Part shown: one piece after another, positions 4,286 to 23,404 of the stretch
How positions within the stretch are numbered: position 1 is the first letter of the stretch
Layout: every line of letters begins with the position of its first letter
IMG/VR virus record: IMGVR_UViG_3300032038_000059
Coordinates: 9,297 to 73,296 of that record
Source of the DNA: a virus
Lineage: Duplodnaviria > Caudoviricetes
DNA: 64,000 nucleotides
Strand: one strand, 5' to 3'
Notes under the pieces: model-generated
The model's input: only the letters and a program-made list of their open reading frames with translations
Told to the model about the DNA's origin: nothing
Databases searched by the model: none
Program-made: the position numbers and the translations under genes

Positions 4286-5002
4286 TTATAGATCTATACT
4301 CTCACCCCTGTGGGCGATGTTAACATTTACATTGTCACCGCAGACTTCTTTAAGTTCACTCAGGATTTTTTTCTCGTCTGCATACTTGTCAGAAAGATGA
4401 CAAGCGATGACATTTTTACATTTGTCAGAAATCGACTTTTCCAAGAAGTTTTTGACAACTTCCAAACTACTGTGACCGCGCAACCTGTGTTCCCTAGCTT
4501 CGTCATTCAGATCGATGTCTTCTGAGTGATTTACGGCTATCAGGAAATGATTTATTTTCCATGTTTTGACGGTAACTGGAATGTATTCGAAGTCGGTAAC
4601 ATAAAGTAATCTCTCGCCATTATCAAACTCGATGATGTACCCGGAATTCGGAGTATCTTCATGTGGCACTGGAATCGGGATGACTTTATAGTGACCGATG
4701 ATTCGAGTTATCTTGTTTGATGACAGACTCCGCACATATTCTCCAGTTATTATTTTGAGGTTTTTTGCAGTTCTATCTTCTGCATATACCGGGATGCCGT
4801 TTTTATTGAAATGGCGATAATACTGTGCGTGATCGCCATGTTCATGAGTTATCAGGCAAGCGTCTATGGCACTCACCCGAAACCCACAAGCAATTTGTAC
4901 ATCTTTCCATTTCATCCCGGCATCAAGTGCGAGATAATGACCGTCATTTTCGATTACATAGCAGTTACCGTTGCTAGAACTCCCTAGAACATGAATTTTC
5001 AT
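4286..5002 (-). CDS. MBL-fold metallo-hydrolase (YycJ-like); true start at 5002
   Basis: MKIHVLGSSSNGNCY, LITHEHGDHA (HxHxDH), PHED, RGHSS, ACHLS. Confidence 0.9.
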   Translation of the reverse strand: MKIHVLGSSSNGNCYVIENDGHYLALDAGMKWKDVQIACGFRVSAIDACLITHEHGDHAQYYRHFNKNGIPVYAEDRTAKNLKIITGEYVRSLSSNKITRIIGHYKVIPIPVPHEDTPNSGYIIEFDNGERLLYVTDFEYIPVTVKTWKINHFLIAVNHSEDIDLNDEAREHRLRGHSSLEVVKNFLEKSISDKCKNVIACHLSDKYADEKKILSELKEVCGDNVNVNIAHRGESIDL

Positions 5003-5834
5003 TTTTATTTTCCTTCCTTGCAGACCAGTAGAAGCCACCTGCTTTATAACGAAAATTGCTATATGCCGCCCTTGCAATGTTTCCTTTGTTGATTGATGTA
5101 ATTTTATGTGCTTCCAAAAATCCATTAAACTCATTCACTATATTCATGTTGGTATCGTATTGCGTGACCTTTATTGTTTTTGATTTTTCTTTTGCATATG
5201 AATCATTACTAGAAGCATACTTGCTAATCAATTCCCTTTGAAGGCAACCACAGCTTTTTGATCTTCCAGAAGTTAAAGACCAAGACTTTACCTTCTTTTC
5301 ATTTCCACAGTCACACCTACAATTCCACACTGCACATCTTTCATATCCGGCAAAAGATAATACAGTCCATCTTCCAAAACGTCTCCCGGTTAAGTCAGTT
5401 GTGTTATATCCGCTTGCCACTACTGGCTCATCTATTGCTCTGTTTTTCAATAGACGTTTTTGCAATGTTTTTTCATTTATTTCCAATAGTTCCGATAATT
5501 GAGCGAGAGTATATTTCTTTCCCTTATATTCAATTATTCTGTTGTTCCTCTTGTTTGACTGTTGTTGCTTGTTTGTAATCCACCTGCAATTAGATGGGCA
5601 GTAGCAGTTATTTACATCTATTCTGTCTAAAGTTAAGTTATCATTGTAACCGTTGTCTAAAGCCCAGTCTCTAAAAGTTATGTAAGAGTTCTTCCACTCA
5701 TCACATACAACTATGCCCCTACCACCGTAATTACCATATTTTCTTCCTTTCTCGTAATAGCACCTAGCTTTCATATTTAGCCAAGATTGGTATAATCTTG
5801 TATTGCTTTCTCCGTGCCATTCTCTTTTCTTCAT
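4974..5834 (-). CDS. Free-standing HNH homing-endonuclease-like protein with CDCG and NUMOD1-like domains
   Basis: RLYQSWLNMKARC...YGGRGIVVCDEW...TLDRIDVN..YCPSNCRW; DLTGRRFGRWTV...WNCRCDCG...SKSCGC; C-terminal VTQYD...KAGGFYW. Confidence 0.8.
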   Translation of the reverse strand: MKKREWHGESNTRLYQSWLNMKARCYYEKGRKYGNYGGRGIVVCDEWKNSYITFRDWALDNGYNDNLTLDRIDVNNCYCPSNCRWITNKQQQSNKRNNRIIEYKGKKYTLAQLSELLEINEKTLQKRLLKNRAIDEPVVASGYNTTDLTGRRFGRWTVLSFAGYERCAVWNCRCDCGNEKKVKSWSLTSGRSKSCGCLQRELISKYASSNDSYAKEKSKTIKVTQYDTNMNIVNEFNGFLEAHKITSINKGNIARAAYSNFRYKAGGFYWSARKENKNENSCSREF

Positions 5835-5854
5835 TTAAATAAACTCCATAACCA

Positions 5855-6775
5855 TCACGATATTTCCTCTGCATCTGCTTCGATGACAAGTTCTTCGGCA
5901 TTCGCCTTTTCTGCAATTTCAGTTTCTGCTGTTTCCGCAGGATCTTCAGGAAGATTATCTACGTACTTAACTTCCCCGGATTCATTCAGAACACCCATGT
6001 CAGATGTAAATGCACGTTGCAGATCAATGCTCATAACGCCCCATTTGGAAATTAACTGGCGAAGCATTGTTTTCTCAGCCATTCCGTCAAAATCTTTGTA
6101 CCAGAAGGATGAATAAAGCCATTCGTCTTTCGCAGGATATTTCCCGTCCAGATAATCCTGATACGAAACTTTCGGATATTTACCTCCCTTCGCATTAAGA
6201 CTGAATGCACTGCTGTATCGATCAGCATGAGCAAGCATCTTTTCTTTGCTCCAGTAGATTTCTTTCTTGAATCCGTTGATAAGTTCGAAAGCTGCGTAAT
6301 ACCCAACAACCGGGAGAGATTCCCTTAATTCCATATCCAAAATTGGTTCAAAAACATATTCTTCCGTAATTGGGTTGAATGACTTCAACTCTCCTTTTTT
6401 GACAGCAGATGCTACGATCTTTCTGTACTGACCGCTACGAATCGCAAGCTGCCGATAACCTTTACTCCCAAGCTGAAACTGGGCTTCAGTTACACCATTT
6501 TTATTTTTGTACGGAACGAGAAAAAATTGTCCCAATTGCGGTGAAGGAGATAACTTCAATGACTCTCCAAGCAACGCTGCGGAGAAAATGGAACTGTTTG
6601 TACACTCTGCAAGCGACTTATTTGCCTGTACAGCAGACACAATTGATGCAATAAAAGATTGCGTATTTTTCTCTCCAACCACACCTGCGATATTCTGTCT
6701 GACCGCAGGATTTGCACAAAACGTAGCAAACCCCACTTTCTGGGGTTGTGTATTAGTTACTGATGTCGATGCCAT
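5855..6775 (-). CDS. recT: RecT-family single-strand annealing recombinase
   Basis: LGESLKLSPSPQLGQFFLVPY, AQFQLGSKGYRQLAIRSGQY, MAEKTMLRQL. Confidence 0.95.
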   Translation of the reverse strand: MASTSVTNTQPQKVGFATFCANPAVRQNIAGVVGEKNTQSFIASIVSAVQANKSLAECTNSSIFSAALLGESLKLSPSPQLGQFFLVPYKNKNGVTEAQFQLGSKGYRQLAIRSGQYRKIVASAVKKGELKSFNPITEEYVFEPILDMELRESLPVVGYYAAFELINGFKKEIYWSKEKMLAHADRYSSAFSLNAKGGKYPKVSYQDYLDGKYPAKDEWLYSSFWYKDFDGMAEKTMLRQLISKWGVMSIDLQRAFTSDMGVLNESGEVKYVDNLPEDPAETAETEIAEKANAEELVIEADAEEIS

Positions 6776-6798
6776 ATAATCTCCTTTCTTAAATGTGT

Positions 6799-7233
6799 AT
6801 CATGCACCTAGAAGATGATTTGAATTATGCTGTTCTGTAGTGTTCTTTTGTGATAAAGGCTATGCTAGACAGTTCATTCAAACCATCATTTAGATGCACG
6901 ATGTTATTGTCCTGTCATTTCTTGCGGTTTCATGTTATGATAGTTATTATGTTTTCCTATTATGTAATGGATGCTTCATGCACCCGGAAAACAACTCGTA
7001 TTGTAATATGCTATTTTGTCGTGATTTGACCTGTGGTAAATTAAAGTGTCAGATCGTGTCGTAAACAACACAAGTTGTCATCTAGATGCATGAAAGCCCG
7101 TGTGCTTAAGAATGACTATAAAAGCCATGTCTTGCGATATATTGTTCTGTCCTGTCGTGTTCCGCGCTGTTGTGTCGTTTAGTATGCTATTGTTTGTTCT
7201 TATGACTCTTACAGCCACACCTCAACACACGGG
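6799..7233 (-). ncRNA. Pentamer-repeat guide-like array, downstream part (4 tracts: 6816-6875, 6903-6972, 6997-7071, 7128-7192)
   Basis: 5-nt periodicity T(G/A)TNN on + strand (NN-AYA on the gene strand), 12-15 units per tract, flanked by inverted repeats such as CCCGTGTG/CACACGGG. Confidence 0.85.
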
Positions 7234-7244
7234 CGAAATATTAT

Positions 7245-7877
7245 TTATGCTTCAACATTTGATACATGGAATCTTCCGTAACCAGATGTTCTTCCAGAAC
7301 CAATTCCACTACCGAAACCTGCGAGGTTAATCACATTTACAATCTGCTCAATTCCGTAAACATTCTCCGTATACTTAATAGTGAACGTTGCGCTCCACCC
7401 GGAAAAACGATTAAGGTGAACCAGAACAGGTGCTCCACGCTTCGGAGACATCAGCTTCTCGTCAATAAAGTGATCCGTAAACTTAATCGGGATAAGCCCA
7501 CCAGTTGCAACGATATTCAGTGCAGAATCCATTTTTGTGGAGTAAGTATCAATTCCGTTTCTGACAACTGCTGCGAGAATAGCTTTCTTCAGCCCGAATG
7601 CGGTGATGCATGGAGCATTATTCTGTAAAGCATTGATAAGTGCTTCTTCCGTAAATTCTTTCGGATAGCCATCTCTCCAGTGCATAGCCGTAATAATGCA
7701 TTCCCATTCATTCGGCTTCTCTGTTGACTTCGCCTTGTCTTTGCGCTGATCTGTAAGAGCACGAATTGTCGGTTCGTTCATTTTATTCAGAACCAGATCG
7801 CCATCGCCCTCAATTGTAATTATTGCAGTATTAACCTTAATCTCCTTTAATTCGATTGCCTGTTCCTTCTTTGCCAT
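7245..7877 (-). CDS. Small Cas7/RAMP-like protein (VIPR-like effector candidate)
   Basis: N-terminal ITIEGDGDLVLN strand, F.GWSATFTIKY strand, C-terminal glycine-rich loop AGFGSGIGSGRTSGYGRFHV typical of RAMP folds; sits between pentamer arrays. Confidence 0.8.
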   Translation of the reverse strand: MAKKEQAIELKEIKVNTAIITIEGDGDLVLNKMNEPTIRALTDQRKDKAKSTEKPNEWECIITAMHWRDGYPKEFTEEALINALQNNAPCITAFGLKKAILAAVVRNGIDTYSTKMDSALNIVATGGLIPIKFTDHFIDEKLMSPKRGAPVLVHLNRFSGWSATFTIKYTENVYGIEQIVNVINLAGFGSGIGSGRTSGYGRFHVSNVEA

Positions 7878-7942
7878 AATTTTTCTCCTTTTGTTTTTAA
7901 TTAATTAATTGATATTGTGTTGTGTTGTTCGCGAATAAACAC

Positions 7943-8718
7943 AATTACAGACACTTCTGAAATCCTATGTAGTAAGCTGTCCTATATTATGCTTTATTGA
8001 ATTAAGCTGACCTTTCCTTTTGATTTCCTATCCTGATATGTCCTACTACGGGAGAAATGCCCGTAATTCTATCTATTCGCTTTATACGCTTAATTAACGG
8101 AGTAAGGTATGCTGTAGTATGCTTATTTATGCTGTTGCGTCATGATCTAAACTGTCATAACATACGGATTACTCCGTTAACTAAATGCATATATCATCCG
8201 CTCAACAAGCAACACTGTCTTCGGCTATGCTGAGTTATAGTGCGTTGAATTGACCTGTATTTTCCTACGCTTGGCAATGTTGCCAGTAGAACGGACGATA
8301 ATTTATTTTGTTCTTAATTGAAATCTAGGATTTTATCATTTAGTGTTTTGATTTGATATAGAGCAAATATGCGCTCAACTAGCGATACGAACTTTTGCAA
8401 TGTCCTATACTGAATTTGTCTGCGCTAAAGTATTCTTCGCTGTTGTATGACTATCATGAAATATCGTTAGCTATTTCGGCTCATATCGCCGGGTGAACGC
8501 ATATTGTTTTATACTGTTTTATATTGTTAAAACGTATTCCATAGAAAGCTGTTCTTTCCTGTAATATTGTTGAGCAATTGGCTCGGAAGATGATGCAATG
8601 TTATGTTTTGTGATATGCAGTATTATCATGCTGTTTGTTGTTGCGTCATTCTCTTTGGGATTCTATCTTGTTCTACATGGTGCAAAATCTATTACACCAT
8701 CATCAGAACCAACCGCTC
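7943..8718 (-). ncRNA. Pentamer-repeat guide-like array, upstream part (7 tracts: 7968-8048, 8103-8167, 8216-8275, 8299-8368, 8386-8461, 8500-8569, 8599-8678)
   Basis: Strict 5-nt phase, e.g. tgtct tcggc tatgc tgagt tatag tgcgt tgaat tgacc tgtat tttcc tacgc ttggc; stems such as TTAACGGAGTAA/TTACTCCGTTAA; most stem mismatches become G-U pairs on the minus strand. Confidence 0.88.
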
Positions 8719-8726
8719 AGATACAT

Positions 8727-9221
8727 TTATGAAACTCTTAAAAACTCATCAATAGCTTCAATCACAGAATCAAGTTCCGTTAATCGCTGATATCTATTTT
8801 TGATACCTTCAAGTTCAATCTTTGCCCGATCCAGAAGCTTTTCGTATTCATCTTTATTCTCATAAAAGAACTTCACAGGTTTGTATGTACCTGTTCTAGA
8901 ACTGTCTGCTTCAACTAAGCGAAAAACAGTTTTCTCTTCTTCTTTAGTTTCAGGGTCTTCCCGAATAAGGACGAAATTCTTTACAAGACGTTGAGCCTGA
9001 ATCACACGATACTTTTCAGAAGCTACTTTGTTGTCCCATTCAAAGTAGTTATGCATCGCAGACTTCTTGTTTCTGGCGAGATCTACGATATCTGAAAGCG
9101 TTCTACTTTCACCGTCTCCGTAGATTTCATCGTAAGTCTTCTGCGGATCAATCCCTTTCATAATTCCCGGAAGTTTCCACCCGGCTTTCTGTGAGAAACT
9201 CCACACCGTATTTCCTTCCAT
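8727..9221 (-). CDS. Conserved phage protein next to the RAMP/array locus (candidate accessory factor)
   Basis: MHNYFEWDNKVASEKYRVIQAQRLV motif; immediately upstream of the array. Confidence 0.7.
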   Translation of the reverse strand: MEGNTVWSFSQKAGWKLPGIMKGIDPQKTYDEIYGDGESRTLSDIVDLARNKKSAMHNYFEWDNKVASEKYRVIQAQRLVKNFVLIREDPETKEEEKTVFRLVEADSSRTGTYKPVKFFYENKDEYEKLLDRAKIELEGIKNRYQRLTELDSVIEAIDEFLRVS

Positions 9222-9234
9222 TACTCTCTCCCCC

Positions 9235-11142
9235 TTAGTTAACAGTCAGTTCCTTATCATCTGAAACCTTAAGCAACACCATCTGCCCATCCATCTCAGG
9301 AAGGTTATCTGAAGATAAACATTCTGCATTATCAATGAAAACCGGGAGTTCTACTCCGTACAGCTTTCTGAACGTCTTGATAATCTGAAGACCTGCCGTA
9401 ATACGGTGACCACTATTCAAAGATGAATAAGGAACTCCGTTGTAAGTAATGGAGCAAGTTTCTTTAATGCCACCATTGATCTGGTTTTCAAATAATTTGA
9501 ACTCCAGTCCATCAAACTGAGAATTAATCAACGAAGATAATGCCTTGACGTAGTTCTCCAGTACGAAAAGCTTTCTCTCCGCATCAGAGATTCGCTGTGC
9601 AACACTCTTAAGTTCTTCCGTTTTCGCATCGATATCAGCTTCGATCTGCTGATTAATGCCGACCTGCGCCAAACTCTGCTGCACGGCAGAAATATTAGCC
9701 TTTATCTCAGAGCGTTTCTGCTCTAACTGAAATTTCTGATTCTGAAGTTCCGGGAGATCAACCATCTCTCCGTAAAGTTCCTGAATCTGCTTTTCCAGTT
9801 CGACATATTCAGGGAGATCTTTTCCGTCAGATATTGGCTGAGATTCGGCAGTTTTCAAAGTAGCCGAAACTTCTTCAAGTCTCGTCTTTAAGTTTTCAAA
9901 GGTCTTTTTCTGATTCTCCAGAGATGATTCAGATTCTGCGATCTGCTTCTCCAGTTCGCGAGTCTGAAGATAAAGTTCATTACCCTTATTCTTAGCGTTC
10001 TCAGTTTCATCTTTGTGTCTCTTCTCCCAATCAACCTTGATCTTTTCCAGATCCGTAGTGGGAAGCTTCTGACCACATCTTGGACAATACGATTCATTTT
10101 CTGGGAACTTCTCTTCCAACATCTTCTTGTACAGCTTCAGAAGATTGTTAACCTGTTCCTGCTTAGTTTTAAGACCATTCTTCTTCCGATTAATGTTGTT
10201 TTCTTCAGAAGTTAGCGAAAACTCTGCTATCTGGTATTCTCTCTGCACTGCATCAACAGCACTTCTGGCTTCTCGGACATCGGCACTACGTTTATCATTA
10301 GCAGCCAAGATTATTACTTTCTGCTGTGATTTGAGTTCTGTGATCTTCGATTCAATCGCTGAATTATTTACTTTGGAAACCTTAAAGATCTCTTCGTTTA
10401 CGGAATCGAGATCTAAATTGAGGGAGGATTCCTTTTCTCTTAACGTCTTCTCATCTACCTCGCGTATCTGTCCGTGAAGAGTATTGATTTCCACTGGCAG
10501 CTGTTCTTGACGCTTAGTCAGTTCTTTCTTTTCCAGAGAATATTTCTTCTTTACGGCATCAGGCGATTCCTGAAGAATGTCCGCAGATATCAAATCAAAG
10601 TAATCAACGTTCTTCCCCACTTCTTCCGGGGAGATATTGATCAGGCTCAGAAGTAACTTTCTCTGTTCTTTCCAATCCAAATTCGGAAACGTCATCGGAT
10701 TTGAGAGAATCTGGAAGACGTTTTCATCTACTATTGATGCTATGAAGTCCTCATACTCTCTAGCGGATTTCGGGAAGCCATTAATGAGATAGCTGTCCTT
10801 ATTTCCTGAGAATTCCTGTTCTTCCTGACCGCGCTTTTTCACCCATTTTTCCTCTTGGATGCGCTGAAGCGTTGTCTCTGTTCCATCAATCTCAGCCACA
10901 AGCGTGACGGATATTTTGGTGTGGTGAACCTTGTCACCATTCGAATCCAGTTCTCTGATCTCGAACTTCGAGTTGCCGTGACTGTCCGTTCCGAAGAATA
11001 ACCACCAGATGCTATCAATTACGGTTGTTTTCCCGGTTGCATTACGTCCAGAAATAACATTTGCAAGATCGTTGAAATCTATCTGTAAATTCCTTATGCC
11101 CTTGAAATTTTCAAAGGAAAGAGACTTAAATTTGACGTTCAT
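9235..11142 (-). CDS. SMC/SbcC-like AAA ATPase with coiled coil and CxxC hook
   Basis: FENFKGI, Walker A GRNATGKTT, YCPRCGQ, signature LNSGHR, Walker B PVFIDNAE. Confidence 0.9.
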   Translation of the reverse strand: MNVKFKSLSFENFKGIRNLQIDFNDLANVISGRNATGKTTVIDSIWWLFFGTDSHGNSKFEIRELDSNGDKVHHTKISVTLVAEIDGTETTLQRIQEEKWVKKRGQEEQEFSGNKDSYLINGFPKSAREYEDFIASIVDENVFQILSNPMTFPNLDWKEQRKLLLSLINISPEEVGKNVDYFDLISADILQESPDAVKKKYSLEKKELTKRQEQLPVEINTLHGQIREVDEKTLREKESSLNLDLDSVNEEIFKVSKVNNSAIESKITELKSQQKVIILAANDKRSADVREARSAVDAVQREYQIAEFSLTSEENNINRKKNGLKTKQEQVNNLLKLYKKMLEEKFPENESYCPRCGQKLPTTDLEKIKVDWEKRHKDETENAKNKGNELYLQTRELEKQIAESESSLENQKKTFENLKTRLEEVSATLKTAESQPISDGKDLPEYVELEKQIQELYGEMVDLPELQNQKFQLEQKRSEIKANISAVQQSLAQVGINQQIEADIDAKTEELKSVAQRISDAERKLFVLENYVKALSSLINSQFDGLEFKLFENQINGGIKETCSITYNGVPYSSLNSGHRITAGLQIIKTFRKLYGVELPVFIDNAECLSSDNLPEMDGQMVLLKVSDDKELTVN

Positions 11143-11399
11143 GTATCCTCCTCAACATTTAAGATTTTTCGAAGCACTTCGATCTTCACGGAGTCCGAAA
11201 TGCTGTAAATATCAATAGCCAAGATATTCTTGATGCATTCCATCTGCGCTTGCATCTCAGCGTTTTCCCTGATAAGATAAGAGATGTCTTTATTTATCTG
11301 GGCATCTGAGAGTATTGCCGTACTCATATCAGATGTCCTTCTCTTTTCCCCGGCGTAGATTTCTCCGTTCTTATATATCGCCAATGTCAATCCTCCCAA
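11139..11399 (-). CDS. Hypothetical protein
   Basis: Overlapping ORF in operon. Confidence 0.55.
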   Translation of the reverse strand: MGGLTLAIYKNGEIYAGEKRRTSDMSTAILSDAQINKDISYLIRENAEMQAQMECIKNILAIDIYSISDSVKIEVLRKILNVEEDT

Positions 11400-11680
11400 A
11401 ACAACTTAATCAATGCATAGATGCCAAGGTAACCACCTGCAATTGCGAGAAGCACGATAGATGTACTTGTGATTCTGTCTGCAATCTCGATCTCCCCGGC
11501 AACGCCGACAATCAGAAACAGTGCTGTAATGAGAAGCACTCCACCGATAAACTCGCCTATCGACATGAAGTCACCTTCGTAAGCTTCCAGAAATAATTTC
11601 TTTGCTTTCGTCATGAAAGCTTTTTTCATATTTTCGCGCTTAACCATCTTGCGCTCTTTCTTAAGTTCCTCGATACTCAT
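11387..11680 (-). CDS. Small membrane protein
   Basis: Two hydrophobic segments. Confidence 0.65.
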   Translation of the reverse strand: MSIEELKKERKMVKRENMKKAFMTKAKKLFLEAYEGDFMSIGEFIGGVLLITALFLIVGVAGEIEIADRITSTSIVLLAIAGGYLGIYALIKLFWED

Positions 11681-11910
11681 TGCTCTCTCCCCTTAATAAT
11701 TATTTCAATCCCCAGATACTTCCCCATTTCCCGGAGATCACCCAATTTGACGTTATCGATATCTGCAAGGCGTTTACTCAGCATCGGTTGCGAAATCCGC
11801 AGCTTCTTGGCGAGATCTTTCTGCTTGTAACGTCCGATCATCGCTTTCCTAAAACACAATTCGATATCTTCAGTTGCCCGATCGTAATCAGATAATTTCA
11901 CTTTCGGCAT
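11677..11910 (-). CDS. Small HTH DNA-binding protein
   Basis: KQKDLAKKLRISQPMLSKRL helix-turn-helix. Confidence 0.75.
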   Translation of the reverse strand: MPKVKLSDYDRATEDIELCFRKAMIGRYKQKDLAKKLRISQPMLSKRLADIDNVKLGDLREMGKYLGIEIIIKGREQ

Positions 11911-12689
11911 TATGTATGTCCGCAGTACCCGTTATCTTCTCTATTGAGAAAGCGATTCACGAAATACTGTTGTCCCTTCCCGGTCACCATAACCGTTTTT
12001 GTGATCCTTACAGACCCGTCTGGATTATTAACAGTACGTTCCTTGATCTTGAATAGCTCTCGTTCCATTGCATACTGTGTAGGAAGGTTCCTTGCCTCGC
12101 CTTTCTTCATGAGGTATCCATTATTACGAAACCAGTCGAATAATCGGTTCTGTCCTATTTCAATGCCGTTCCCCTTGAGGATCTTGGCAAGTTGTCCGAT
12201 TAGGATTGCATCGTCAGATATAGAAACTGCATCAGCGAAAATCTCTTTAGGTTTCATCCTGTGGTTATCTTCAAGGAGAAGACCGTTCTGCTTTTCAAGG
12301 CGCTCCGCTTCTTCTGCTTTATCAGCTAAAGCCCGAAGTGCTTCTGCATATGTCTGAGGAAGCTGATAACCACCAGTTTTACGAATGGACGGAAGGACTT
12401 CTGATGTAACCCAATGCTTAAACCGTTTCGCAGAATCCAATTTGCTTGAGAGAACTAAACTATAAAGACCAGATTCGTTAATAAGCCATCCACCTCTCTG
12501 CCCTAAACTCGATAACGATTCGTTATTGAGTTTGTCATCGTCATCAACATGATCCGCAAGTGCTTTACTCGGATTCTGGTATCCAAGTGCGACCGCAACG
12601 TCTTTGCCAACTAACCACGGTTCATTATCAACCATCACTGTCCTGACCGATCCAAATTCTGAGTTTTCAAAGATCTTGATGTCGTTCAT
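11910..12689 (-). CDS. Phage antirepressor (BRO-N plus ANT/KilAC)
   Basis: IFENSEFGSVRTV...PWLVGKDVA...INESGLYSL...FKHWVTSEVLPSIRKTG; MKPKEIFADAV...GQNRLF...VTGKGQQYF. Confidence 0.95.
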   Translation of the reverse strand: MNDIKIFENSEFGSVRTVMVDNEPWLVGKDVAVALGYQNPSKALADHVDDDDKLNNESLSSLGQRGGWLINESGLYSLVLSSKLDSAKRFKHWVTSEVLPSIRKTGGYQLPQTYAEALRALADKAEEAERLEKQNGLLLEDNHRMKPKEIFADAVSISDDAILIGQLAKILKGNGIEIGQNRLFDWFRNNGYLMKKGEARNLPTQYAMERELFKIKERTVNNPDGSVRITKTVMVTGKGQQYFVNRFLNREDNGYCGHT

Positions 12690-12937
12690 TCAGTTACCTC
12701 CTCTTTAAGTTCCGTTTCGTGAACTTTAGGAGTAAAAAAATATAACCCGATATCATCAGGCATGATGTCCAGTAGTTCACATGACTTTACGATATCTCCG
12801 TGCGTAAAGAATGTCTCCCCATTAAACACCAGAGATACAAAGTTGTGACTTCGCCCTAAAGCTTGAGCAAAAGCACCTTCCGTCTTCATCTTTTCTCTGA
12901 TTAAGCCACGGAGTTTAGAGTAATCATATTCGACCAA
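12686..12937 (-). CDS. Cro-like protein (DUF739-like)
   Basis: YDYSKLRGLIREK...FAQALG...IGLYFF; first gene of the lytic operon, divergent from the repressor. Confidence 0.85.
   Translation of the reverse strand: MVEYDYSKLRGLIREKMKTEGAFAQALGRSHNFVSLVFNGETFFTHGDIVKSCELLDIMPDDIGLYFFTPKVHETELKEEVTE
12708..12725. promoter_or_regulatory. Operator-like palindrome AGTTC-N8-GAACT upstream of the antirepressor
   Basis: agttccgtttcgtgaact; near-identical copy at 12972-12989. Confidence 0.65.
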
Positions 12938-12971
12938 AGCTGTTTTTCACCACCTTTCTATGTTTTAACTT

Positions 12972-13094
12972 TGTTCCGCTTCGTGAACTGTAATGATAAT
13001 ATCATGGTTATATACCATTGTCAACAAAAAAGTTTCGATTTGTGAATTATTTTTTCCAAGACCGATTGTAAATGTGAACTTTATAATGTATAAT
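12972..13094. promoter_or_regulatory. Lysis-lysogeny switch: divergent promoters and three operator-like sites
   Basis: Leftward TTGACA(13024-13019)-17-TATTAT; rightward TTGTAA(13066)-17-TATAAT(13089); GTTC-N8-GAAC-like sites at 12972, 13031 and 13063. Confidence 0.75.
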
Positions 13095-13128
13095 CATAGG
13101 TACAAACAGGGGAGAGAAATGGAGTGGT

Positions 13129-13518
13129 ATGGTTAGTACAGCAAAAAGATTGCAGGAATTGATAGATTATTACGGCATAAGTGCAGCCGAATTATCAAAG
13201 AGTGTTGGTATTGCTAAGTCTTCTATTTCAATGTGGCTTAATGGTCAGCGAACCATGCGTCAGGATAAGATCGGCTTAATCGCAAGACACTATAACATCG
13301 ACCCGGCTTGGCTCATGGGATATGATGTGCCGATGCATAGAACGGAAGATGTTTCTCAGGAAGATCCCGGAATTGTCGTAACTGATAAGGATAATCGCTT
13401 CAGTATTCATTTTCGTGACGGCAAGACGATGAGTGATGAAGATAAAAAGTTGCTCAAAGAACAGTTGGAAAACACTATCGATATCTTTTATAAATTGAGG
13501 GGAATTGATAAGAAGTGA
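13129..13518 (+). CDS. CI-like XRE-family repressor
   Basis: RLQELI...ISAAELSKSVGIAKSSISMWLNG...IDPAWLMGYDVPM. Confidence 0.92.
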   Translation: MVSTAKRLQELIDYYGISAAELSKSVGIAKSSISMWLNGQRTMRQDKIGLIARHYNIDPAWLMGYDVPMHRTEDVSQEDPGIVVTDKDNRFSIHFRDGKTMSDEDKKLLKEQLENTIDIFYKLRGIDKK

Positions 13519-14129
13519 TTAAGCCTAACTACAATAAATGCAAACAAACTGCAAATAAGATCCTTTTAGCACAGGAAGAATTGCCGCTAACTCCAAATGT
13601 CTTCCATATGCACTCCGATAAAAAGATCATCATCTCTTCCATTCAAGACTACTGTAAGATGCTTCATATTAACATTGGAGCATTCACATATGGGTATAAG
13701 ACGCTTAATGGCGTGAAGATCTATGACCGGGAGCGAGATATCTATACAATTCTATATAACGGATATTCAAACCGTTTAATCAGTGTTCGGTGGGATATAG
13801 CGCATGAACTTGGGCATATATTTCTTGAGCATAAAGATGAGAGCGATGTTGAAGAAACTGAAGCGAACACATTTGCAAGACAGTTGCTGATGCCTGAGTA
13901 TACCGTATTGCGAATCTGGACGGATTATAAAATTATCAATACACAAGCATTCTCGGCTATCTTCGATGTATCGCCTACTGTTGCAAGTTACCTAATTCAG
14001 AATCTTAAGAAACGAGGATGTATCAGAGTAACATCCGATGACATTGAAATATGGGAAAGGCAGAAAGGATATGTAGAAGAAAGAATCTCTTATGCAGAGA
14101 GGTTCTATGATCTAGAAGCAATGATTTAA
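13515..14129 (+). CDS. ImmA/IrrE-family metallo-endopeptidase (anti-repressor protease)
   Basis: RWDIAHELGHI (HExxH) and E.EANTFARQLLMP; directly after the repressor. Confidence 0.9.
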   Translation: MIKPNYNKCKQTANKILLAQEELPLTPNVFHMHSDKKIIISSIQDYCKMLHINIGAFTYGYKTLNGVKIYDRERDIYTILYNGYSNRLISVRWDIAHELGHIFLEHKDESDVEETEANTFARQLLMPEYTVLRIWTDYKIINTQAFSAIFDVSPTVASYLIQNLKKRGCIRVTSDDIEIWERQKGYVEERISYAERFYDLEAMI

Positions 14130-14136
14130 CCATCAT

Positions 14137-14168
14137 AAAATGCACGTTCCATCTACGTGTATTTTTTG
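14137..14168 (+). terminator. Hairpin/terminator between immA and int
   Basis: AAAATGCACG-ttccatcta-CGTGTATTTTTT. Confidence 0.5.
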
Positions 14169-14193
14169 TACTCATTTTTAAGGGAGAATAATT

Positions 14194-15222
14194 ATGGCGA
14201 AAGCAACATTGACACCATCTGGAAAATATAGATGCCAAGTATACATAGGCACTGATGCTGATGGAAAGCGTAAGTACAAAGTATTTACAGATGCAGATAA
14301 GCGAAGATGTGAAAGGAAAGCATCTGAGTTCGCAGATGAGCATCGAGTCGCAAAAAACTCAGATGAGATTGGTCATGCAATAGAACATTATATAACAATC
14401 AAAGAAGCTGTTTTAAGCCCTTCAACGATCAGGGGGTATGAAGCTATCAATCGAACCATTAAAACGTCCTATAGCGCGTTCTACGAGCGCAGAATGGCTA
14501 CTCTGGATAAGGATACTCTGCAGGAGTTCATAAATGACTTGCTGATGGATGGAAAGAAACCAAAAACGATCCGAAATATGGTTGGACTGGTAACGGCAGT
14601 CATCGATTACAATGACTACCATGTGCCGAAGACAAGACTCCCTGAACGCAAGAAACCAGACTTGCATATTCCAGACACGAAGGATGTGGCAAAGATCATC
14701 AAAGAAGCAGAAGGGACAGAAATGGAGATCCCGGTTTTACTCGCAGCTTTAGCTTCGATGAGAAGAAGCGAGATATGTGCTTTAACTCTTGATGACATAT
14801 CTGGCACAACAATCCATGTCCATAAAGCAATGGTTCTCAGTCCACGCGATAAATTTGTAACGAAAGGGACTAAGACGTATGACAGTGATAGATACATACC
14901 GATGCAAAAAGAGATCATCGACAAGATCATGAAGAAGGGATGCATCACCAACATCAAAACTCCCGGAGGACTTACAACTGGATTTGAGCGTATAGCTGAG
15001 AAGGTTGGATGCAAGGGGACAAGATTTCATGATCTCCGTCACTGGTGTGCAAGCTACCTTCATGCAAAGGGAGTCCCGGATCAGTACATCATGATAAGGG
15101 GAGGATGGAAGACGGATAGAGTGATGAAAGCTGTATACACACATGAACTCGCGTCCGAATCCGATAAATGGAATAAACAGATCGATAAGTATTTCGAAGA
15201 GGCTGTCAAGTTGCATGGCTAA
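14194..15222 (+). CDS. int: Tyrosine integrase
   Basis: MRRSEICAL (R), FHDLRH (HxxR), GGW, VYTH (Y); N-terminal arm-binding and SAM-like domains. Confidence 0.95.
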   Translation: MAKATLTPSGKYRCQVYIGTDADGKRKYKVFTDADKRRCERKASEFADEHRVAKNSDEIGHAIEHYITIKEAVLSPSTIRGYEAINRTIKTSYSAFYERRMATLDKDTLQEFINDLLMDGKKPKTIRNMVGLVTAVIDYNDYHVPKTRLPERKKPDLHIPDTKDVAKIIKEAEGTEMEIPVLLAALASMRRSEICALTLDDISGTTIHVHKAMVLSPRDKFVTKGTKTYDSDRYIPMQKEIIDKIMKKGCITNIKTPGGLTTGFERIAEKVGCKGTRFHDLRHWCASYLHAKGVPDQYIMIRGGWKTDRVMKAVYTHELASESDKWNKQIDKYFEEAVKLHG

Positions 15223-15527
15223 TTTTAAATCGCCAATAAATGCAGTAAAATTAAGTTGCTTCAAGTTGCATTTTAAGTTGCACAGCAAGTTGCATCGATA
15301 TTCTTTGTGCAAATTTACTATAACTCTCAGGAATAAAATATAAGCAATATGAATAAAAAACGCCTGATTTTTCGTGAAAATGGCACAAAAAAAGACCGAT
15401 TAGCCCTTGAAAAATAATGGAAAATCGGTCTAAAAACGGAGAGTGTGGGATTCGAACCCAGAACTAACCTCTAAAAAGCGTTGATTTTACTGCATTTTTT
15501 AACGCTCAAGTTGCATTTTAAGTTGCA
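15206..15527. other. attP: core matching a tRNA-Ser 3' end (15437-15460) flanked by arm-type repeats
   Basis: Reverse complement of 15437-15460 is TGGGTTCGAATCCCACACTCTCCG (T-arm plus acceptor); AAGTTGC(A/T) occurs once near 15206, four times in 15251-15295 and twice in 15506-15527. Confidence 0.85.
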
Positions 15528-15536
15528 TATTTAAAA

Positions 15537-17282
15537 TCACGAACCCTTTCGTCCTTCCTTTTTTCCGTACTGGATGAAGTGTTTATAGTACGATTTTAAG
15601 TCATCGCCGAATGCATTTCTGAGATCTGCATATCTCTTCCTGTACTTATGTACATTAAACTTGGATGAGCCTTGTCTACCTTCCTTCATGCCATATTCGC
15701 AGAAGTGATCAAAGTATTTTTGTTTGTTCGTACCAAATGCCTTGCGGAGATCTGCGTACTTTTTCTTGTAATAAGTATAGTTGTAAACAGGTGAGTAATT
15801 CAATCCATTCCATACAGTTGAGTATTTAGTTTTCTTCTCCGTCTTCTCTTTGTAAGCTTTCTCTAACGCAGATTTAGTAGCTTCATCATAGTGACCGTTC
15901 ACTGTCATCCCGGAAGCTTTCTGGAATGCCTTGAGCGCATTCTCTGTATTTGTTCCGAAACTTCCATCCGCTCCATACGAACCACATGAATATCCGCAAG
16001 CTATAAGCATCATCTGCATTGTCTGGACAGCATCGCCAGAATCGCCTTTGGAAAGATAGTCATTCTTGATGATATCATGGTCATACGGAAGAGTGATTGT
16101 TCCGTCCTTACGATACTGTTTCAGGTTTGCTTTGAATTCATCCCAAGTCCATGAAGTTCTCAGGTTGTTATTCTTGACGTAGGGATTTGGACAAATCTTC
16201 CCGGTCACATCATAATGACGGATTACATGATCTATACTAATGTCGTACTCATCCATAAGTTTACTCACCAGATAGACAAGCGATTCCTGAGTCTCTTCCG
16301 TAAAATACCACTTGTTGGAATCGCCGTCAGCATCCTTCACGTTTTCTGTGTAGCAGACTCCACACTCGATACCTATGGAATTGTAGTTCGTGCAGATCTG
16401 GAAATATTTATGACCGTCAGAACCTTGAAGTCCTCCTCCACAATGCCATACTACGGCAGTCTTCGGATCAGCAGCTTTATAGATCTCGCCATTGCGTTTG
16501 ATATTGTAATGACCACCATATCCTCCACCATACAGATAGGGGTTGTCTGCATTCGGGACTCCTAGATAATGACAGACGATGAACTTAATCTTGTTGCCAT
16601 TTCTAGATCTGGGGACTTCAGAGAGATTCTCTTTCGTGATGTCATGAATAGTTTTATTCTGAATCTTGATTACGCACGGCTCAAGCTGATCGTCCGGGAT
16701 CTCTTCTTTGATGATATCTGATGGTTTAACATCGGAAAGATTATCATACTTTGTCAGATCATGTTTGTTAATGATCCGCATAACACTTGATGGATAGGTG
16801 CTTCCTGTCGCATACCCAAGTGAAGCTACCTTCTTAATCAATGCGGAAGGATCTCTCATGGAAAGAACTGCTTTGCCGTACTTAGGTTTGCCACCCTTCC
16901 CGTAATTCGAAGCATAGGTCAGGAACAGAAGAAAATCACAGAAGGATCTCTCAATACTATCATATACCCGGAAATCATCTTCGATTGTAACCATCTTGCC
17001 ATCGTATTCTTCAGGCGTATCCTTAGTAATGCTCTCGCCTTGCCATACAGTGTATTCGTCCCATGAATCATTCAGTAAGTTGCTCTTAATTCCCACCATA
17101 TTATTCGCTTTGAGAAGTAAAGCTATTTGCGGATTATCCCAGTAGGACTCAATTCCGTATCCATTCTCCAAGCATGATTGGGCAATAAGAACGGAAGGGA
17201 GATAACCGTAGCGTTTACACGCTTTCTGTGCAGGTATTGCTACTGCATTGATGTATTCCTGTTCTGAGGTGCATATTTTCAT
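15537..17282 (-). CDS. Modular endolysin: GH73 glucosaminidase, Amidase_2, PG-binding domain and C-terminal repeats
   Basis: LPSVLIAQSCLENG...GYAT; IVCHY...WHCGG...SIGIE...HYDVTGKICP; LSKGDSG.AV..MQ..L; two YKK.YADLR.AFG...HF..YG.KEGR repeats. Confidence 0.9.
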   Translation of the reverse strand: MKICTSEQEYINAVAIPAQKACKRYGYLPSVLIAQSCLENGYGIESYWDNPQIALLLKANNMVGIKSNLLNDSWDEYTVWQGESITKDTPEEYDGKMVTIEDDFRVYDSIERSFCDFLLFLTYASNYGKGGKPKYGKAVLSMRDPSALIKKVASLGYATGSTYPSSVMRIINKHDLTKYDNLSDVKPSDIIKEEIPDDQLEPCVIKIQNKTIHDITKENLSEVPRSRNGNKIKFIVCHYLGVPNADNPYLYGGGYGGHYNIKRNGEIYKAADPKTAVVWHCGGGLQGSDGHKYFQICTNYNSIGIECGVCYTENVKDADGDSNKWYFTEETQESLVYLVSKLMDEYDISIDHVIRHYDVTGKICPNPYVKNNNLRTSWTWDEFKANLKQYRKDGTITLPYDHDIIKNDYLSKGDSGDAVQTMQMMLIACGYSCGSYGADGSFGTNTENALKAFQKASGMTVNGHYDEATKSALEKAYKEKTEKKTKYSTVWNGLNYSPVYNYTYYKKKYADLRKAFGTNKQKYFDHFCEYGMKEGRQGSSKFNVHKYRKRYADLRNAFGDDLKSYYKHFIQYGKKEGRKGS

Positions 17283-17294
17283 ACTATACCTCCA

Positions 17295-18293
17295 TTACAT
17301 ACTGTATTTTGTGTATGAATTCTTAATCTGACTGCTGTCCGTATAAACATATTTCATCGTTGTGTTGATGTCGCTGTGTCCCAGAAGAGCCTTAATCTCC
17401 TGTACATCCATTCCTCTCTTAGCAAGGTTTGTGGCAAAGGTTCGCCTGAATCGGTGTGGATGCACATTCGTTACCCCTGTTCTTCGTTCTATCTCTTTCA
17501 GAATGAACTGGATGCCACTTGAACTTATCCTCTGCTTCTTGTTATTCAAAAATAAGCAAGGCAGTCCGTCATTTCGCGTTTCCAGATATTTCTTCAAATG
17601 CTCTTTGGCTACAGGAGTCAGGTATGTGATCCTCTCTTTCGAGCCTTTACCAAAACGAACATGAACTTTTAACTCGCCGAAGTTAACATCGCCAATGTCC
17701 ATGTTTGATAGTTCCGACACACGAACTCCAGTTGCGAGAAGGAACTCGATTAACGCTCTCTCCTTCAGCGATTTACATGAACTCCGCATGGAATCGATCT
17801 CGACATCACTGAAGGGGAATTTAACTTCTTTGTTGCATTTGATCGGTTTGATCTTCATGCATGGGTTCTTTGCAGTCTCTTCCTCAAGAGTTAACCACTG
17901 GAAGAATGCCGAAAGATTTGCTCTTGTGTTTTCCAGAGTGACATTTGAGATGCCACGCTCTTTTTCTAGAGCCAGAAACATACGGATGTCATAAGCATTC
18001 ATCTCCGTGTATTTCTTCCCGGACATCTCAGCAAGCTTTCTACAAGTTCTCGCATACTGGTAGATTGTACGATCTGACTTACCATCTACTCTCAGGCAAC
18101 CGATGTATCGCTTCAGTAGTTTGTTATTCGTATTGTCATACGGAACAATCTCAGTGCTTTGTTCCGCAATTGTGTATTTCCCCAGAATCAGGATCACCTT
18201 GCTTTCGAATCTTTCCCTATCATCTGGGCTGATCATGTCATATGTTTCGGCAAGGATCGTGCTGATAACTTGCTCCCTATAATCTATGGACAT
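17295..18293 (-). CDS. Second tyrosine recombinase (XerD-like)
   Basis: ATGVRVSEL, GKGSKER, HPHRFRRTFAT, LLGHSDINTTMKY. Confidence 0.92.
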   Translation of the reverse strand: MSIDYREQVISTILAETYDMISPDDRERFESKVILILGKYTIAEQSTEIVPYDNTNNKLLKRYIGCLRVDGKSDRTIYQYARTCRKLAEMSGKKYTEMNAYDIRMFLALEKERGISNVTLENTRANLSAFFQWLTLEEETAKNPCMKIKPIKCNKEVKFPFSDVEIDSMRSSCKSLKERALIEFLLATGVRVSELSNMDIGDVNFGELKVHVRFGKGSKERITYLTPVAKEHLKKYLETRNDGLPCLFLNNKKQRISSSGIQFILKEIERRTGVTNVHPHRFRRTFATNLAKRGMDVQEIKALLGHSDINTTMKYVYTDSSQIKNSYTKYSM

Positions 18294-18416
18294 TCACTAT
18301 GCCCCCTTAAGATTTATAGTTTTGTAAAAAAAATAAGCCACACTCCCAAAGCTGAGAATGTGGCTCATATTACCCGTTATTTAATTTTTGCTACAGAATA
18401 GCCTGCTTTAATTGAG

Positions 18417-18629
18417 TTACAGTCTAGGATCTTCCCAATCAGTATGCTTTTGACTGTGCCAATAATCGCAGTATGCATCAGTCTGTCTCAAAGCATCAAT
18501 TTTCTCCTTCAAAAGTTCTGCCAGCATATTTTTTTCGTCAACTGATTCAAAAGTTAATGTATCAAAACCACAAGTCAGCTTATCCAATAACGCTTGATAC
18601 TTAGTAATTTCTTTTTTATAAATTGACAT
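18417..18629 (-). CDS. Hypothetical protein
   Basis: ORF with RBS; followed by a hairpin/poly-T at about 18330-18370. Confidence 0.55.
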   Translation of the reverse strand: MSIYKKEITKYQALLDKLTCGFDTLTFESVDEKNMLAELLKEKIDALRQTDAYCDYWHSQKHTDWEDPRL

Positions 18630-18678
18630 TCTTGCCCCTCAACGAAATAGGATTTTTATGTTTTCGAAACAACCTGCT

Positions 18679-21549: not shown

Positions 21550-21564
21550 TTACATTTCCTCCTA

Positions 21565-21822
21565 TCAGCTTCTGTACGGTTCTGTGTATGTCATTGCTCT
21601 TGTGCTATCATTTAGGCTATGAGTAGTCGGATCATTTACCACGCCGATAATCGTCAGCACTACGAAGACCGCATCGACAACGGCGAGAATCTTCGTCTGG
21701 AAATCTGTCAGATCGATCTTGAAACCAAACACAGCACCGATAGCCTGAATCAGTACCAGAATTGCCGGGATGAATGCAATCCAGAAATTCTTGTTTTTGA
21801 TTCTTACTTTCCAGTTAATCAT
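21565..21822 (-). CDS. Holin (phi LC3 family)
   Basis: MINWKVRIKNKNFW...GVVNDPTT.SL.DS.RAMTY. Confidence 0.95.
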   Translation of the reverse strand: MINWKVRIKNKNFWIAFIPAILVLIQAIGAVFGFKIDLTDFQTKILAVVDAVFVVLTIIGVVNDPTTHSLNDSTRAMTYTEPYRS

Positions 21823-21837
21823 TGGGATACCTCCTCC

Positions 21838-22344: not shown

Positions 22345-22440
22345 ATTAAGTTATGTGTAACAGACCTCCAGTATCATAGGCATTAAGCCTAATATCATAA
22401 ATAAATCATATAATTCGGCACTGCATCGAACAAGAAACCT

Positions 22441-23391: not shown

Positions 23392-23404
23392 GTACTATAT
23401 CTCC

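What the first reader, a model, noticed from the sequence alone, without database searches (positions are those of the whole stretch)
6799..9221. Phage-encoded RAMP/Cas7-like gene embedded in 11 pentamer guide tracts: a candidate RNA-guided gapped-code system
Seen: a 210-aa protein with a RAMP-type C-terminal G-rich loop (7245-7877) is flanked by 4 downstream and 7 upstream tracts of 12-16 pentamers. Each pentamer is a conserved triplet plus a variable dinucleotide (+ strand T(G/A)T-NN; RNA sense NN-A(C/U)A), and most tracts are closed by 10-25 bp stems. Most stem mismatches are A-C on the + strand but G-U on the - strand, so the RNA is probably co-oriented with the gene. There is no cas1/cas2, no nuclease and no classical repeat-spacer array. 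Established: Cas7-type RAMPs polymerise along guide RNAs. Inference: each subunit binds the AYA triplet and presents NN for pairing, skipping every third target base. From memory (not verified here), phage VIPR systems were reported with GGY/NN pentamers; this locus would be an AYA-scaffold variant.
Basis: partly seen in the sequence, partly recalled or inferred. Interest (0 to 1): 0.97.

Follow-up and report, generated by a model that had tools for sequence, protein, structure and literature searches.

The report
Phage VIPR system with AYA-NN guides
A gut phage carries a variant of the recently described VIPR RNA-guided DNA-silencing system whose guide RNAs use A-Y-A rather than G-G-Y as the fixed letters, and four of its guides spell conserved genes of rival phages.

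Summary
The 210-aa gene (7245-7877, minus strand) encodes a Vipr-family RAMP. A profile of its relatives hits only the solved SUSP1 Vipr (E 3.8e-15), and the predicted fold matches Csm3/Cmr4. Both flanking intergenic regions show 5-nt periodicity (z 5.1 and 6.8). An unbiased EM gives A-Y-A-N-N in gene sense. I count 11 tracts; seven are closed by 23-33-nt imperfect stems whose mismatches are G-U in gene sense (30 versus 4).

The SUSP1 residues that read the two guanines (H17, R138, D177, W178) are N31, L155, S194 and G195 here. Relatives that keep the SUSP1-type loop (D/E-W-R) have GGY- or GKT-NN repeats.

The published one-base-skip rule applies. Four guides match public sequences exactly, with the skipped base at the codon wobble position:
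- recT: at least 115 phage contigs.
- SNF2 helicase motif V: 18 contigs.
- An XRE regulator: 1 contig.
- The start of small HTH_26-type regulator genes: at least 120 metagenome contigs.

A 2-nt-skip control and three other guides gave no hits. The phage's own recT matches at only 18 of 24 positions.

This is a new variant of a known kind. VIPR and unspecified non-canonical repeats were published in 2026, and this scan has already reported an AYA-NN VIPR on another genome.

The parts
7245..7877 (-). vipr gene: 210-aa Vipr-family RAMP. G-loop is GIGSGR (S194, G195, R196); N31 and L155 sit at the positions of SUSP1 H17 and R138.
8727..9221 (-). Conserved 164-aa accessory-gene candidate (phrog_15946). 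No Pfam match. The N-terminal half is weakly winged-helix-like and the C-terminus is a helical hairpin.
   Evidence: A co-oriented homolog is present in 101 of 109 family loci and lies directly upstream of the array in 90. Model pLDDT 85.9. Fold matches reach only Z about 5-6. Not homologous to SUSP1-family vap1.
8591..8674 (-). Guide tract T1, about 16 AYA-NN units. Target not tested.
   Evidence: Flank duplex energy -26 kcal/mol.
8502..8570 (-). Guide tract T2, 13 units, no clear closing stem. Target not tested.
8366..8505 (-). Stem-closed unit U4 holding tract T3 (8448-8394, 11 units). It spells Q-A-[DE]-L-A-[DE]-[IM]-V-G-[FL]-[KN] of an XRE helix-turn-helix.
   Evidence: Stem. One exact IMG/VR hit that extends to 22 of 22 bases, in frame in an HTH_3 gene.
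8302..8361 (-). Seventh upstream tract, 12 units, no stem of its own. It spells Y-[KN]-[KN]-L-W-K-L-L-I-D-K.
   Evidence: At least 120 exact 22-base NNx matches in metagenome contigs. All are in frame and in sense, at residues about 4-7 of roughly 76-aa ORFs whose printed sequences look like small helix-turn-helix regulators. These ORFs were not scanned against Pfam.
8192..8300 (-). Stem-closed unit U3 holding guide T4 (8278-8219, 12 units). It spells A-A-G-[IM]-G-[IM]-T-L-T-A-A-[SR], which is SNF2 helicase motif V.
   Evidence: 18 exact IMG/VR hits for 10 units. Nine extend to 24 of 24 bases. All are in frame and in sense within ORFs of 213-756 aa. The L116 target scanned against Pfam is SNF2-rel_dom + Helicase_C. 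Three further 21-of-24 hits lie in Lachnospiraceae-family genomes and none in the reversed control.
8083..8191 (-). Stem-closed unit U2 holding tract T5 (8158-8108, about 12 loop units).
   Evidence: A 10-unit exact scan found nothing.
7931..8080 (-). Stem-closed unit U1 holding tract T6 (8044-7955, about 18 units with one 6-nt slip).
   Evidence: -45.0 kcal/mol in sense versus -23.3 in antisense.
7096..7234 (-). Stem-closed unit D1 holding tract T7 (7204-7124, about 15 units).
   Evidence: An 11-unit exact scan found nothing.
6975..7094 (-). Stem-closed unit D2 holding tract T8 (7062-6998, 12 units).
   Evidence: A 10-unit exact scan found nothing.
6906..6970 (-). Guide T9, 13 units, no strong stem. 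It matches the antisense strand of rival recT genes at P-Q-L-G-Q-Y-Y-M-V-P.
   Evidence: At least 115 exact IMG/VR hits, and 17 extend to 12 units. The skipped base is at wobble. All 115 loci encode a RecT 43-65% identical to this phage's own, and none has a vipr in the fetched stretch. The 2-nt-skip control gave 0 hits.
6799..6902 (-). Stem-closed unit D3 holding tract T10 (6852-6814, 7-10 units).
5855..6775 (-). The phage's own recT. The site homologous to the T9 target (about 6510-6544) reads P-Q-L-G-Q-F-F-L-V-P-Y and matches T9 at only 18 of 24 positions, so the phage avoids targeting itself.

Best explanation
This is a VIPR-type RNA-guided DNA-recognition system of a temperate gut Clostridia phage, in a divergent form.

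Proposed mechanism. The two intergenic regions are transcribed in the same direction as vipr, giving about 11 guide RNAs (vrRNAs). Each guide is a run of 5-nt units, A-Y-A plus two free bases. Vipr protomers polymerise along the run, one per unit. They hold the AYA triplet in the pocket that binds GGY in SUSP1 Vipr, and they present the NN pairs. The NN pairs read double-stranded DNA while skipping every third base, so a guide spells the first two bases of consecutive codons.

Targets. The guides point at conserved motifs of rival phages and mobile elements of gut Firmicutes: recT, an SNF2 helicase and Cro/CI-type regulators. The likely effect is transcriptional silencing. The phage's own recT escapes through changes at the NN positions.

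Stems. Most guides are loops closed by a long, sequence-variable stem formed by their 5' and 3' flanks. I infer that this stem delimits or processes each guide, with RNase III a plausible agent, or protects its ends.

Shown here by computation: homology to Vipr, the periodic motif, the strand, the stems, the exact NNx matches and self-avoidance.

Inferred: transcription, RNP assembly, triplet recognition by the changed residues, silencing as the outcome, and the role of the stems.
For: Protein.
- A family profile hits only PDB 36pp 'SUSP1 Vipr protein', E 3.8e-15 over residues 4-188.
- hhalign against the Alf5/SUSP1-family Vipr gives probability 98.8%, E 5.6e-17.
- The AF2 model (pLDDT 84.7) matches Csm3/Cmr4: Foldseek E 4e-5 and VIA Z 9.9.

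RNA.
- Period-5 signal, z 5.1 and 6.8.
- EM motif AYA-NN. The same method recovers GGT-NN in the SUSP1-type control locus.
- 497 of 499 family tracts lie outside vipr; 469 are upstream and 28 downstream.
- NN entropy is 1.93-1.94 bits against 0.34-1.23 bits for the scaffold, with 223 distinct guides.

Strand.
- G-U versus A-C in stems: 425 versus 84 across the family, and 30 versus 4 in the window.
- Sense folds are the more stable.

Stems.
- The flank-flank duplex has median -31.5 kcal/mol for a tract's own flanks against -13.9 for mismatched flanks, p 4e-48.

Specificity switch.
- SUSP1 H17, R138, D177 and W178 (the G1 and G2 contacts, paper 10.64898/2026.04.26.720927) are N31, L155, S194 and G195 here. 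R179 is kept as R196.
- Relatives with D/E-W-R loops have GGY- or GKT-NN repeats.

Targets.
- Four guides have exact NNx matches with wobble-phased skips.
- The 2-nt-skip control and three other guides gave 0 hits.
- Three of the four targets are in mRNA sense, so the target is DNA and not RNA.
- There is no self-target in the 73-kb genome, and own recT matches at 18 of 24.
Against: - There are no expression, binding or silencing data.
- Scaffold units in this window are degenerate. Many are AAA, TCA, GCA or TTA, and one tract has a 6-nt slip.
- Three of seven guides tested had no exact target in IMG/VR. Four guides were not tested.
- The targets of T4 and of the seventh tract are highly conserved peptide motifs. 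The matches therefore show that the guide spells the motif, not which element is the natural target.
- Four tracts (T1, T2, T9 and the seventh) are not among the seven closed by the long arms; T1's flanks do pair at -26 kcal/mol.
- Fold libraries gave no direct structural comparison with Vipr itself. The Foldseek library stops at April 2026.
Confidence: 0.86

Rival explanations
1. The RNAs are made from the opposite strand, so the repeat is U-R-U plus NN (U-NN-U-G in another register). The locus would then fall into one of the published G-containing classes (YNNNG), or the 'WGT/NN' or 'TGH/NN' clusters of the October 2026 preprint.
For: Reverse-complementing ACA-NN gives TGT-NN, which fits the YNNNG, WGT and TGH descriptions. 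NNx target matching is symmetric under reverse complement, so the target hits do not decide the strand.
Against: Stem mismatches are G-U in gene sense by 5 to 1 across 125 family helices and by 30 to 4 in the window, and this runs against the base-composition bias. All seven units fold better in gene sense, and the family-wide paired test gives p 4e-21. In the SUSP1-type and D/E-W-R relatives the GGY repeats are also in gene sense. The residues that bind G are lost.
Confidence: 0.06
2. The system targets RNA, as type III Cas7 backbones do, and silences or cleaves rival transcripts rather than binding DNA.
For: The closest solved folds in the libraries searched are Csm3 and Cmr4, the RNA-targeting backbones. 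The T9 guide is antisense to recT mRNA.
Against: T3, T4 and the seventh tract have the same sense as the target mRNAs, so they cannot pair with them. The closest sequence homolog, Vipr, binds dsDNA (papers 10.64898/2026.04.26.720920 and .720927). I did not check for the Csm3 catalytic aspartate.
Confidence: 0.04
3. The pentamer tracts are not guides. They would be A-rich structured or regulatory DNA or RNA of the recombination module, such as origin-like or protein-titrating repeats, and the Vipr homolog would simply bind them.
For: The locus sits between an SbcC-like ATPase and recT. The scaffold is degenerate in this window. No RNA data exist.
Against: It does not explain the 20-24-base exact, codon-phased matches to recT, SNF2 and HTH genes, when four control patterns gave none. 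It does not explain hypervariable NN on a conserved scaffold, with guides swapped between phages whose Vipr is 98% identical. It does not explain the self-avoidance in own recT.
Confidence: 0.04

Closest known systems
Type II VIPR of Escherichia phage SUSP1 and Felixounavirus relatives (Vipr + vap1 + vrRNAs; bioRxiv 10.64898/2026.04.26.720920, .720927 and 10.64898/2026.10.15.759431; PDB 36pp)
   Same: - A homologous single small RAMP, detected at profile level.
- Phage-encoded, with no cas genes or CRISPR array.
- Guide genes in the long intergenic regions on both sides of vipr, in gene sense.
- 5-nt units of 3 fixed and 2 hypervariable bases, 9-18 units per guide.
- The one-base-skip code with the skip at codon wobble.
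- Targets in rival mobile elements on either DNA strand, and no self-targets.
- R179 (the Y3 contact) is conserved.
   Different: - The fixed triplet is A-Y-A, not G-G-Y.
- The four G-contact residues are replaced (N31, L155, S194, G195), and the G-loop is 4-6 residues shorter.
- There is no invariant 3' tail or pseudoknot. Instead the 5' and 3' flanks form a 23-33-nt stem that differs in sequence from unit to unit.
- The accessory gene is a different protein, and it lies upstream.
- Hosts are gut Clostridia.
- Targets are recT, an SNF2 helicase and HTH regulators rather than a satellite recombinase.
Non-canonical VIPR-like pentamer clusters (GAC/NN, CAC/NN, WGT/NN, TGH/NN) in bioRxiv 10.64898/2026.10.21.760802
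   Same: Period-5 arrays beside a Vipr-like fold, with a fixed triplet other than GGY. WGT and TGH could be this family read on the other strand.
   Different: The text I could read names no AYA or ACA motif. It gives no strand, targets, protein-residue correlation or stem architecture. Whether this family is among those 21 clusters could not be checked, because the figures and tables are not held.
Cas7-family backbone subunits of class 1 CRISPR effectors (Csm3, Cmr4, Cas7)
   Same: RRM core, glycine-rich loop and thumb (Foldseek E 4e-5; VIA Z 8-10). One subunit per fixed step of guide RNA, with periodic base flipping.
   Different: - The step is 5 nt rather than 6.
- There is no CRISPR array, no Cas6/Cas5 handle and no large or small subunits.
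- The guide is built of repeats and has no contiguous spacer.
- The target is read in gapped dinucleotides.

Membership tests
VIPR (Vipr protein + vrRNA) | A Vipr protein: a small stand-alone RAMP (RRM core, G-loop, thumb) homologous to the described Viprs | tested here: met
   Profile A2 against PDB 36pp_D gives E 3.8e-15 and is the only significant hit. hhalign probability 98.8%. The fold matches Csm3/Cmr4.
VIPR (Vipr protein + vrRNA) | Tandem 5-nt units next to vipr, each with three conserved and two hypervariable positions | tested here: met
VIPR (Vipr protein + vrRNA) | Scaffold consensus GGY, or one of the published alternatives NNNGG, YNNNG or NNNNG | tested here: not met
   The gene-sense motif is A(.79) Y A(.89) N N, with G at 0.10 or below at the fixed positions. 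The strand was fixed by the G-U asymmetry.
VIPR (Vipr protein + vrRNA) | G1 and G2 contact residues of SUSP1 Vipr (H17, R138, D177, W178) | tested here: not met
   They align to N31, L155, S194 and G195. Only R179 is kept, as R196.
VIPR (Vipr protein + vrRNA) | One-base-skip (NNx) target code, with natural targets in mobile elements, the skip at wobble, and no self-targeting | tested here: met
   Four guides have exact codon-phased matches. The 2-nt-skip control gave 0 hits. There is no self-target. This is computational only.
VIPR (Vipr protein + vrRNA) | An invariant structured 3' tail (hairpin or pseudoknot) after the repeat tract, as in type II | tested here: not met
   No shared tail was found. 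Seven of the 11 tracts are instead enclosed by unit-specific 5'/3' stems.
VIPR (Vipr protein + vrRNA) | An adjacent vap accessory gene | tested here: inconclusive
   A conserved syntenic 164-aa gene is present in 101 of 109 loci. It is not homologous to vap1. The fold is only weakly winged-helix-like, Z 5-6.
VIPR (Vipr protein + vrRNA) | vrRNAs are expressed and co-purify with Vipr, and the RNP represses NNx DNA targets | not testable with these tools
   This needs small-RNA sequencing, pull-down and reporter assays.
Class 1 CRISPR-Cas (Cas7 backbone) | A repeat-spacer array and other cas genes (cas5, cas6, large subunit, cas1/cas2) in the locus | tested here: not met
   The neighbours are an SbcC-like ATPase, a 164-aa unknown protein and RecT. 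Rfam finds nothing. The only repeats are the pentamer tracts and the unit-specific stems.

The most novel reading that the evidence does not exclude
The fixed triplet of VIPR guides is itself an evolvable code, set by a few G-loop, thumb and beta-sheet residues. Within one protein family I see these pairings:
- GGY or GKT with D/E-W-R loops.
- AYA with S-G-R.
- WCA with T-C-R.
- WYA with S-H-K.
- ATT with H-T-Q-R.

Such mutually orthogonal scaffolds would stop a rival's solo vrRNAs from loading onto, and redirecting, a phage's Vipr. That hijack was shown for SUSP1 satellites.

In this clade the guides would be loop-only RNAs, cut out of a long precursor at unit-specific double-stranded stems by a host enzyme such as RNase III. 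That would be a processing route not described for VIPR.
Probability: 0.4. Interest if true: 0.78.

Novelty: new variant of a known kind. Interest (0 to 1): 0.62.

Why it matters
VIPR was described only in 2026, and its experiments rest on GGY-type systems of Proteobacteria phages. This locus extends that picture in four ways.
- The same one-base-skip code works with a G-free scaffold in abundant human-gut Clostridia phages.
- It pinpoints the protein positions that changed together with the scaffold. That gives a direct, testable handle on how a RAMP chooses its RNA, and a route to orthogonal VIPR tools that could be used side by side.
- It provides interpretable natural targets: rival recT, an SNF2 helicase and Cro/CI-type regulators.
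- It offers a clean case of self-avoidance in the neighbouring recT gene, which is useful for understanding phage-phage competition in the gut.

Tried and rejected
- Sliding-window Fourier power at period 5 did not single the locus out within the window. Autocorrelation over the whole intergenic regions did.
- Single-sequence and close-family profile searches did not link the protein to Vipr significantly (E 1.2 and 0.93). Only the broad profile did.
- Pfam RAMPs scored below threshold.
- Rfam gave only chance-level hits and no hammerhead.
- The promoter and terminator scans were uninformative, with fewer hits than in shuffles.
- A megablast hit to a Ruminococcus phage that I first read as lying in vipr is in the Ant-like gene at window 12405-12575. 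I had mistaken query coordinates for window coordinates.
- Cross-searching 223 family guides against 0.6-1.3 Mb of fetched loci gave little. With the three guides the database was selected on set aside, two guides scored 0.9 or more at 1-nt skip, and none did at 0-nt or 2-nt skip or when shuffled.
- Exact scans for T7, T8 and T5 found nothing.
- The search for related loci could not use the D/E-W-R-class alignment.
- The 164-aa protein has no convincing fold match and no Pfam family.
Full report
**What is there.** The window is part of a 73-kb IMG/VR virus record estimated 91% complete. On the minus strand lie, in order:
- an SbcC-like ATPase gene (9235-11142);
- a 164-aa ORF (8727-9221);
- 849 nt without ORFs (7878-8726);
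- a 210-aa ORF (7245-7877);
- 469 nt without ORFs (6776-7244);
- recT (5855-6775).

These two gaps are the largest intergenic regions of the genome.

**The protein.** Pfam gives only a sub-threshold RAMPs hit on the C-terminal glycine-rich loop (E 0.0076). The family is large: 2293 proteins at 90% clustering and 527 clusters at 50%. An AlphaFold2 model (pLDDT 84.7) matches Csm3, Cmr4 and Cas7 backbones, with Foldseek E 4e-5 and probability 1.0 and VIA Z 9.9 over about 150 residues.

A profile of 74 diverse relatives finds one significant solved protein, the SUSP1 Vipr protein (PDB 36pp, E 3.8e-15, nearly full length). hhalign against the Vipr of the SUSP1-family phage Alf5 gives probability 98.8%. 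The protein is therefore a Vipr homolog. VIPR systems were described in 2026 (bioRxiv 10.64898/2026.04.26.720920).

**The repeats.** Lag-5, lag-10 and lag-15 autocorrelation is raised in both intergenic regions (z 5.1 and 6.8; none of 1000 dinucleotide shuffles reach it) and not in the neighbouring genes. The same holds across 54 distinct family loci.

EM with random starts always converges on A(.79)-Y(C .65, T .23)-A(.89)-N-N in gene sense. As a positive control, the same code recovers G-G-T-N-N from the Alf5 locus.

An HMM built from this profile tracts in the window. In 101 loci it tracts, and 497 of them lie outside vipr. An eleventh, weaker tract (8361-8302) is validated by its targets (see "Targets" below).

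The NN positions are near maximal entropy, and guides turn over quickly. A phage whose Vipr is 98% identical shares only three guides unchanged.

**Strand and stems.** Seven tracts sit in loops closed by arms of 23-33 nt that differ in sequence from unit to unit.
- In these stems the non-Watson-Crick positions are 30 G-U in gene sense, 4 A-C and 8 other.
- Over 125 family helices the counts are 425 versus 84, although the base composition favours A-C.
- All seven units fold more stably in gene sense.
- Across 264 family tracts, a tract's own flanks pair far better than mismatched flanks: median -31.5 against -13.9 kcal/mol, p 4e-48.

The RNAs are therefore co-oriented with vipr, and the unit is 5'-AYA-NN-3'. 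The VIPR paper lists YNNGG, NNNGG, YNNNG and NNNNG, and AYA is not among them. Its type II guides end in an invariant tail rather than an enclosing stem.

**Protein-RNA covariation.** The cryo-EM paper assigns G1 to H17 and D177, G2 to R138 and W178, and Y3 to R179 among others. In the alignments these positions are N31, S194, L155, G195 and R196 in the window protein.

Across the family two classes appear. One has H31, an R-Y-R thumb and a G-[ED]-W-R loop. The other has N31, no R-Y-R and a G-S-G-R loop that is 4-6 residues shorter.

Three relatives of the first class, plus Alf5, carry GGY- or GKT-NN repeats. About 100 loci of the second class carry AYA-NN. Three intermediate proteins carry WCA-NN, WYA-NN and ATT-NN. 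This supports, but does not prove, the idea that these residues set the scaffold triplet.

**Targets.** I turned guides into NNx patterns and scanned public collections for exact matches.
- **T9** (10 units) hit at least 115 IMG/VR contigs. All hits are on the antisense strand of recT at P-Q-L-G-Q-Y-Y-M-V-P, with the skipped base at wobble, and 17 extend to 12 units. All 115 loci encode a RecT 43-65% identical to this phage's own.
- **T9 control.** The same dinucleotides with a 2-nt skip hit nothing.
- **T4** hit 18 contigs. Nine extend to 24 of 24 bases. All are in frame and in sense at SNF2 motif V. One of these ORFs (L116) was confirmed as SNF2-rel_dom + Helicase_C by Pfam. Three further 21-of-24 hits occur in 401 Lachnospiraceae-family genomes, against none for the reversed pattern.
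- **T3** hit one contig, 22 of 22 bases, in an HTH_3 gene.
- **The seventh tract** hit at least 120 metagenome contigs, 22 of 22 bases, at residues about 4-7 of roughly 76-aa ORFs whose printed sequences look like small helix-turn-helix regulators.
- **T7, T8 and T5** hit nothing. That also shows such patterns rarely match by chance.

Three of the four targets are in mRNA sense, so the target must be DNA. The genome has no self-target. The best self-match of T9 (18 of 24) is the homologous site of the phage's own recT, which reads F-F-L instead of Y-Y-M and uses a TTG leucine codon.

I tested three of those four notes, and all three hold.

**Accessory gene and host.** The 164-aa gene has a co-oriented homolog in 101 of 109 family loci, including a GGY-type locus whose other neighbours differ. 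It has no Pfam family, is unrelated to vap1, and shows only weak winged-helix-like similarity. Family members occur in MAGs labelled Blautia, Faecalimonas, Eisenbergiella, Ruminococcus and Oscillospiraceae, sometimes on long contigs, so they are prophages of gut Clostridia.

**Novelty.** VIPR is published. An October 2026 preprint (10.64898/2026.10.21.760802) reports 21 clusters of Vipr-linked non-canonical pentamers, with GAC, CAC, WGT and TGH as examples. WGT or TGH could be this family read on the other strand. This scan has many VIPR findings, and one earlier follow-up describes an AYA-NN VIPR on another genome.

What this analysis adds:
- the strand;
- the stem-closed loop architecture;
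- the residue-scaffold covariation;
- the natural targets, with self-avoidance.

I rate it a new variant of a known kind, with interest 0.62.

Noticed in passing
L108:1387-2465 (metagenome contig carrying P0167): A Vipr relative with the G-loop G-I-H-T-Q-R is flanked by A-T-T-N-N pentamers. This is another G-free scaffold. It shows the same SbcC-like and 162-aa synteny.
   Followed up: partly
L109:400-826 and L111:837-1500: Vipr relatives with G-T-C-R-P and G-S-H-K-P loops carry W-C-A-NN and W-Y-A-NN tracts. L111 comes from a 207-kb contig, possibly a jumbo phage.
   Followed up: partly
L111:2230-2520: Downstream of that vipr gene are sequences that look like tRNA genes by eye. They were not scanned.
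   Followed up: no
L002 and L003 (Vipr 98% identical to the window's): These close relatives keep T3, T4 and T5 unchanged but have replaced T6, T7 and T9. In place of recT they have genes for an 89-aa and a 330-aa protein. The recT-targeting guide and recT are thus absent together.
   Followed up: partly
window 11910-12689: An Ant-like anti-repressor gene has a 171-nt stretch (12405-12575) 80% identical to Ruminococcus phage NatCom_28274 (Ca. Heliusvirales). It was the only megablast hit of window 5000-25000 in the phage collection.
   Followed up: partly
L078:2095 (family guide): An 11-unit guide from another family member matches 20 of 22 NN positions at four sites in the fetched SNF2-helicase contigs under the 1-nt skip. 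The gene hit was not identified.
   Followed up: no
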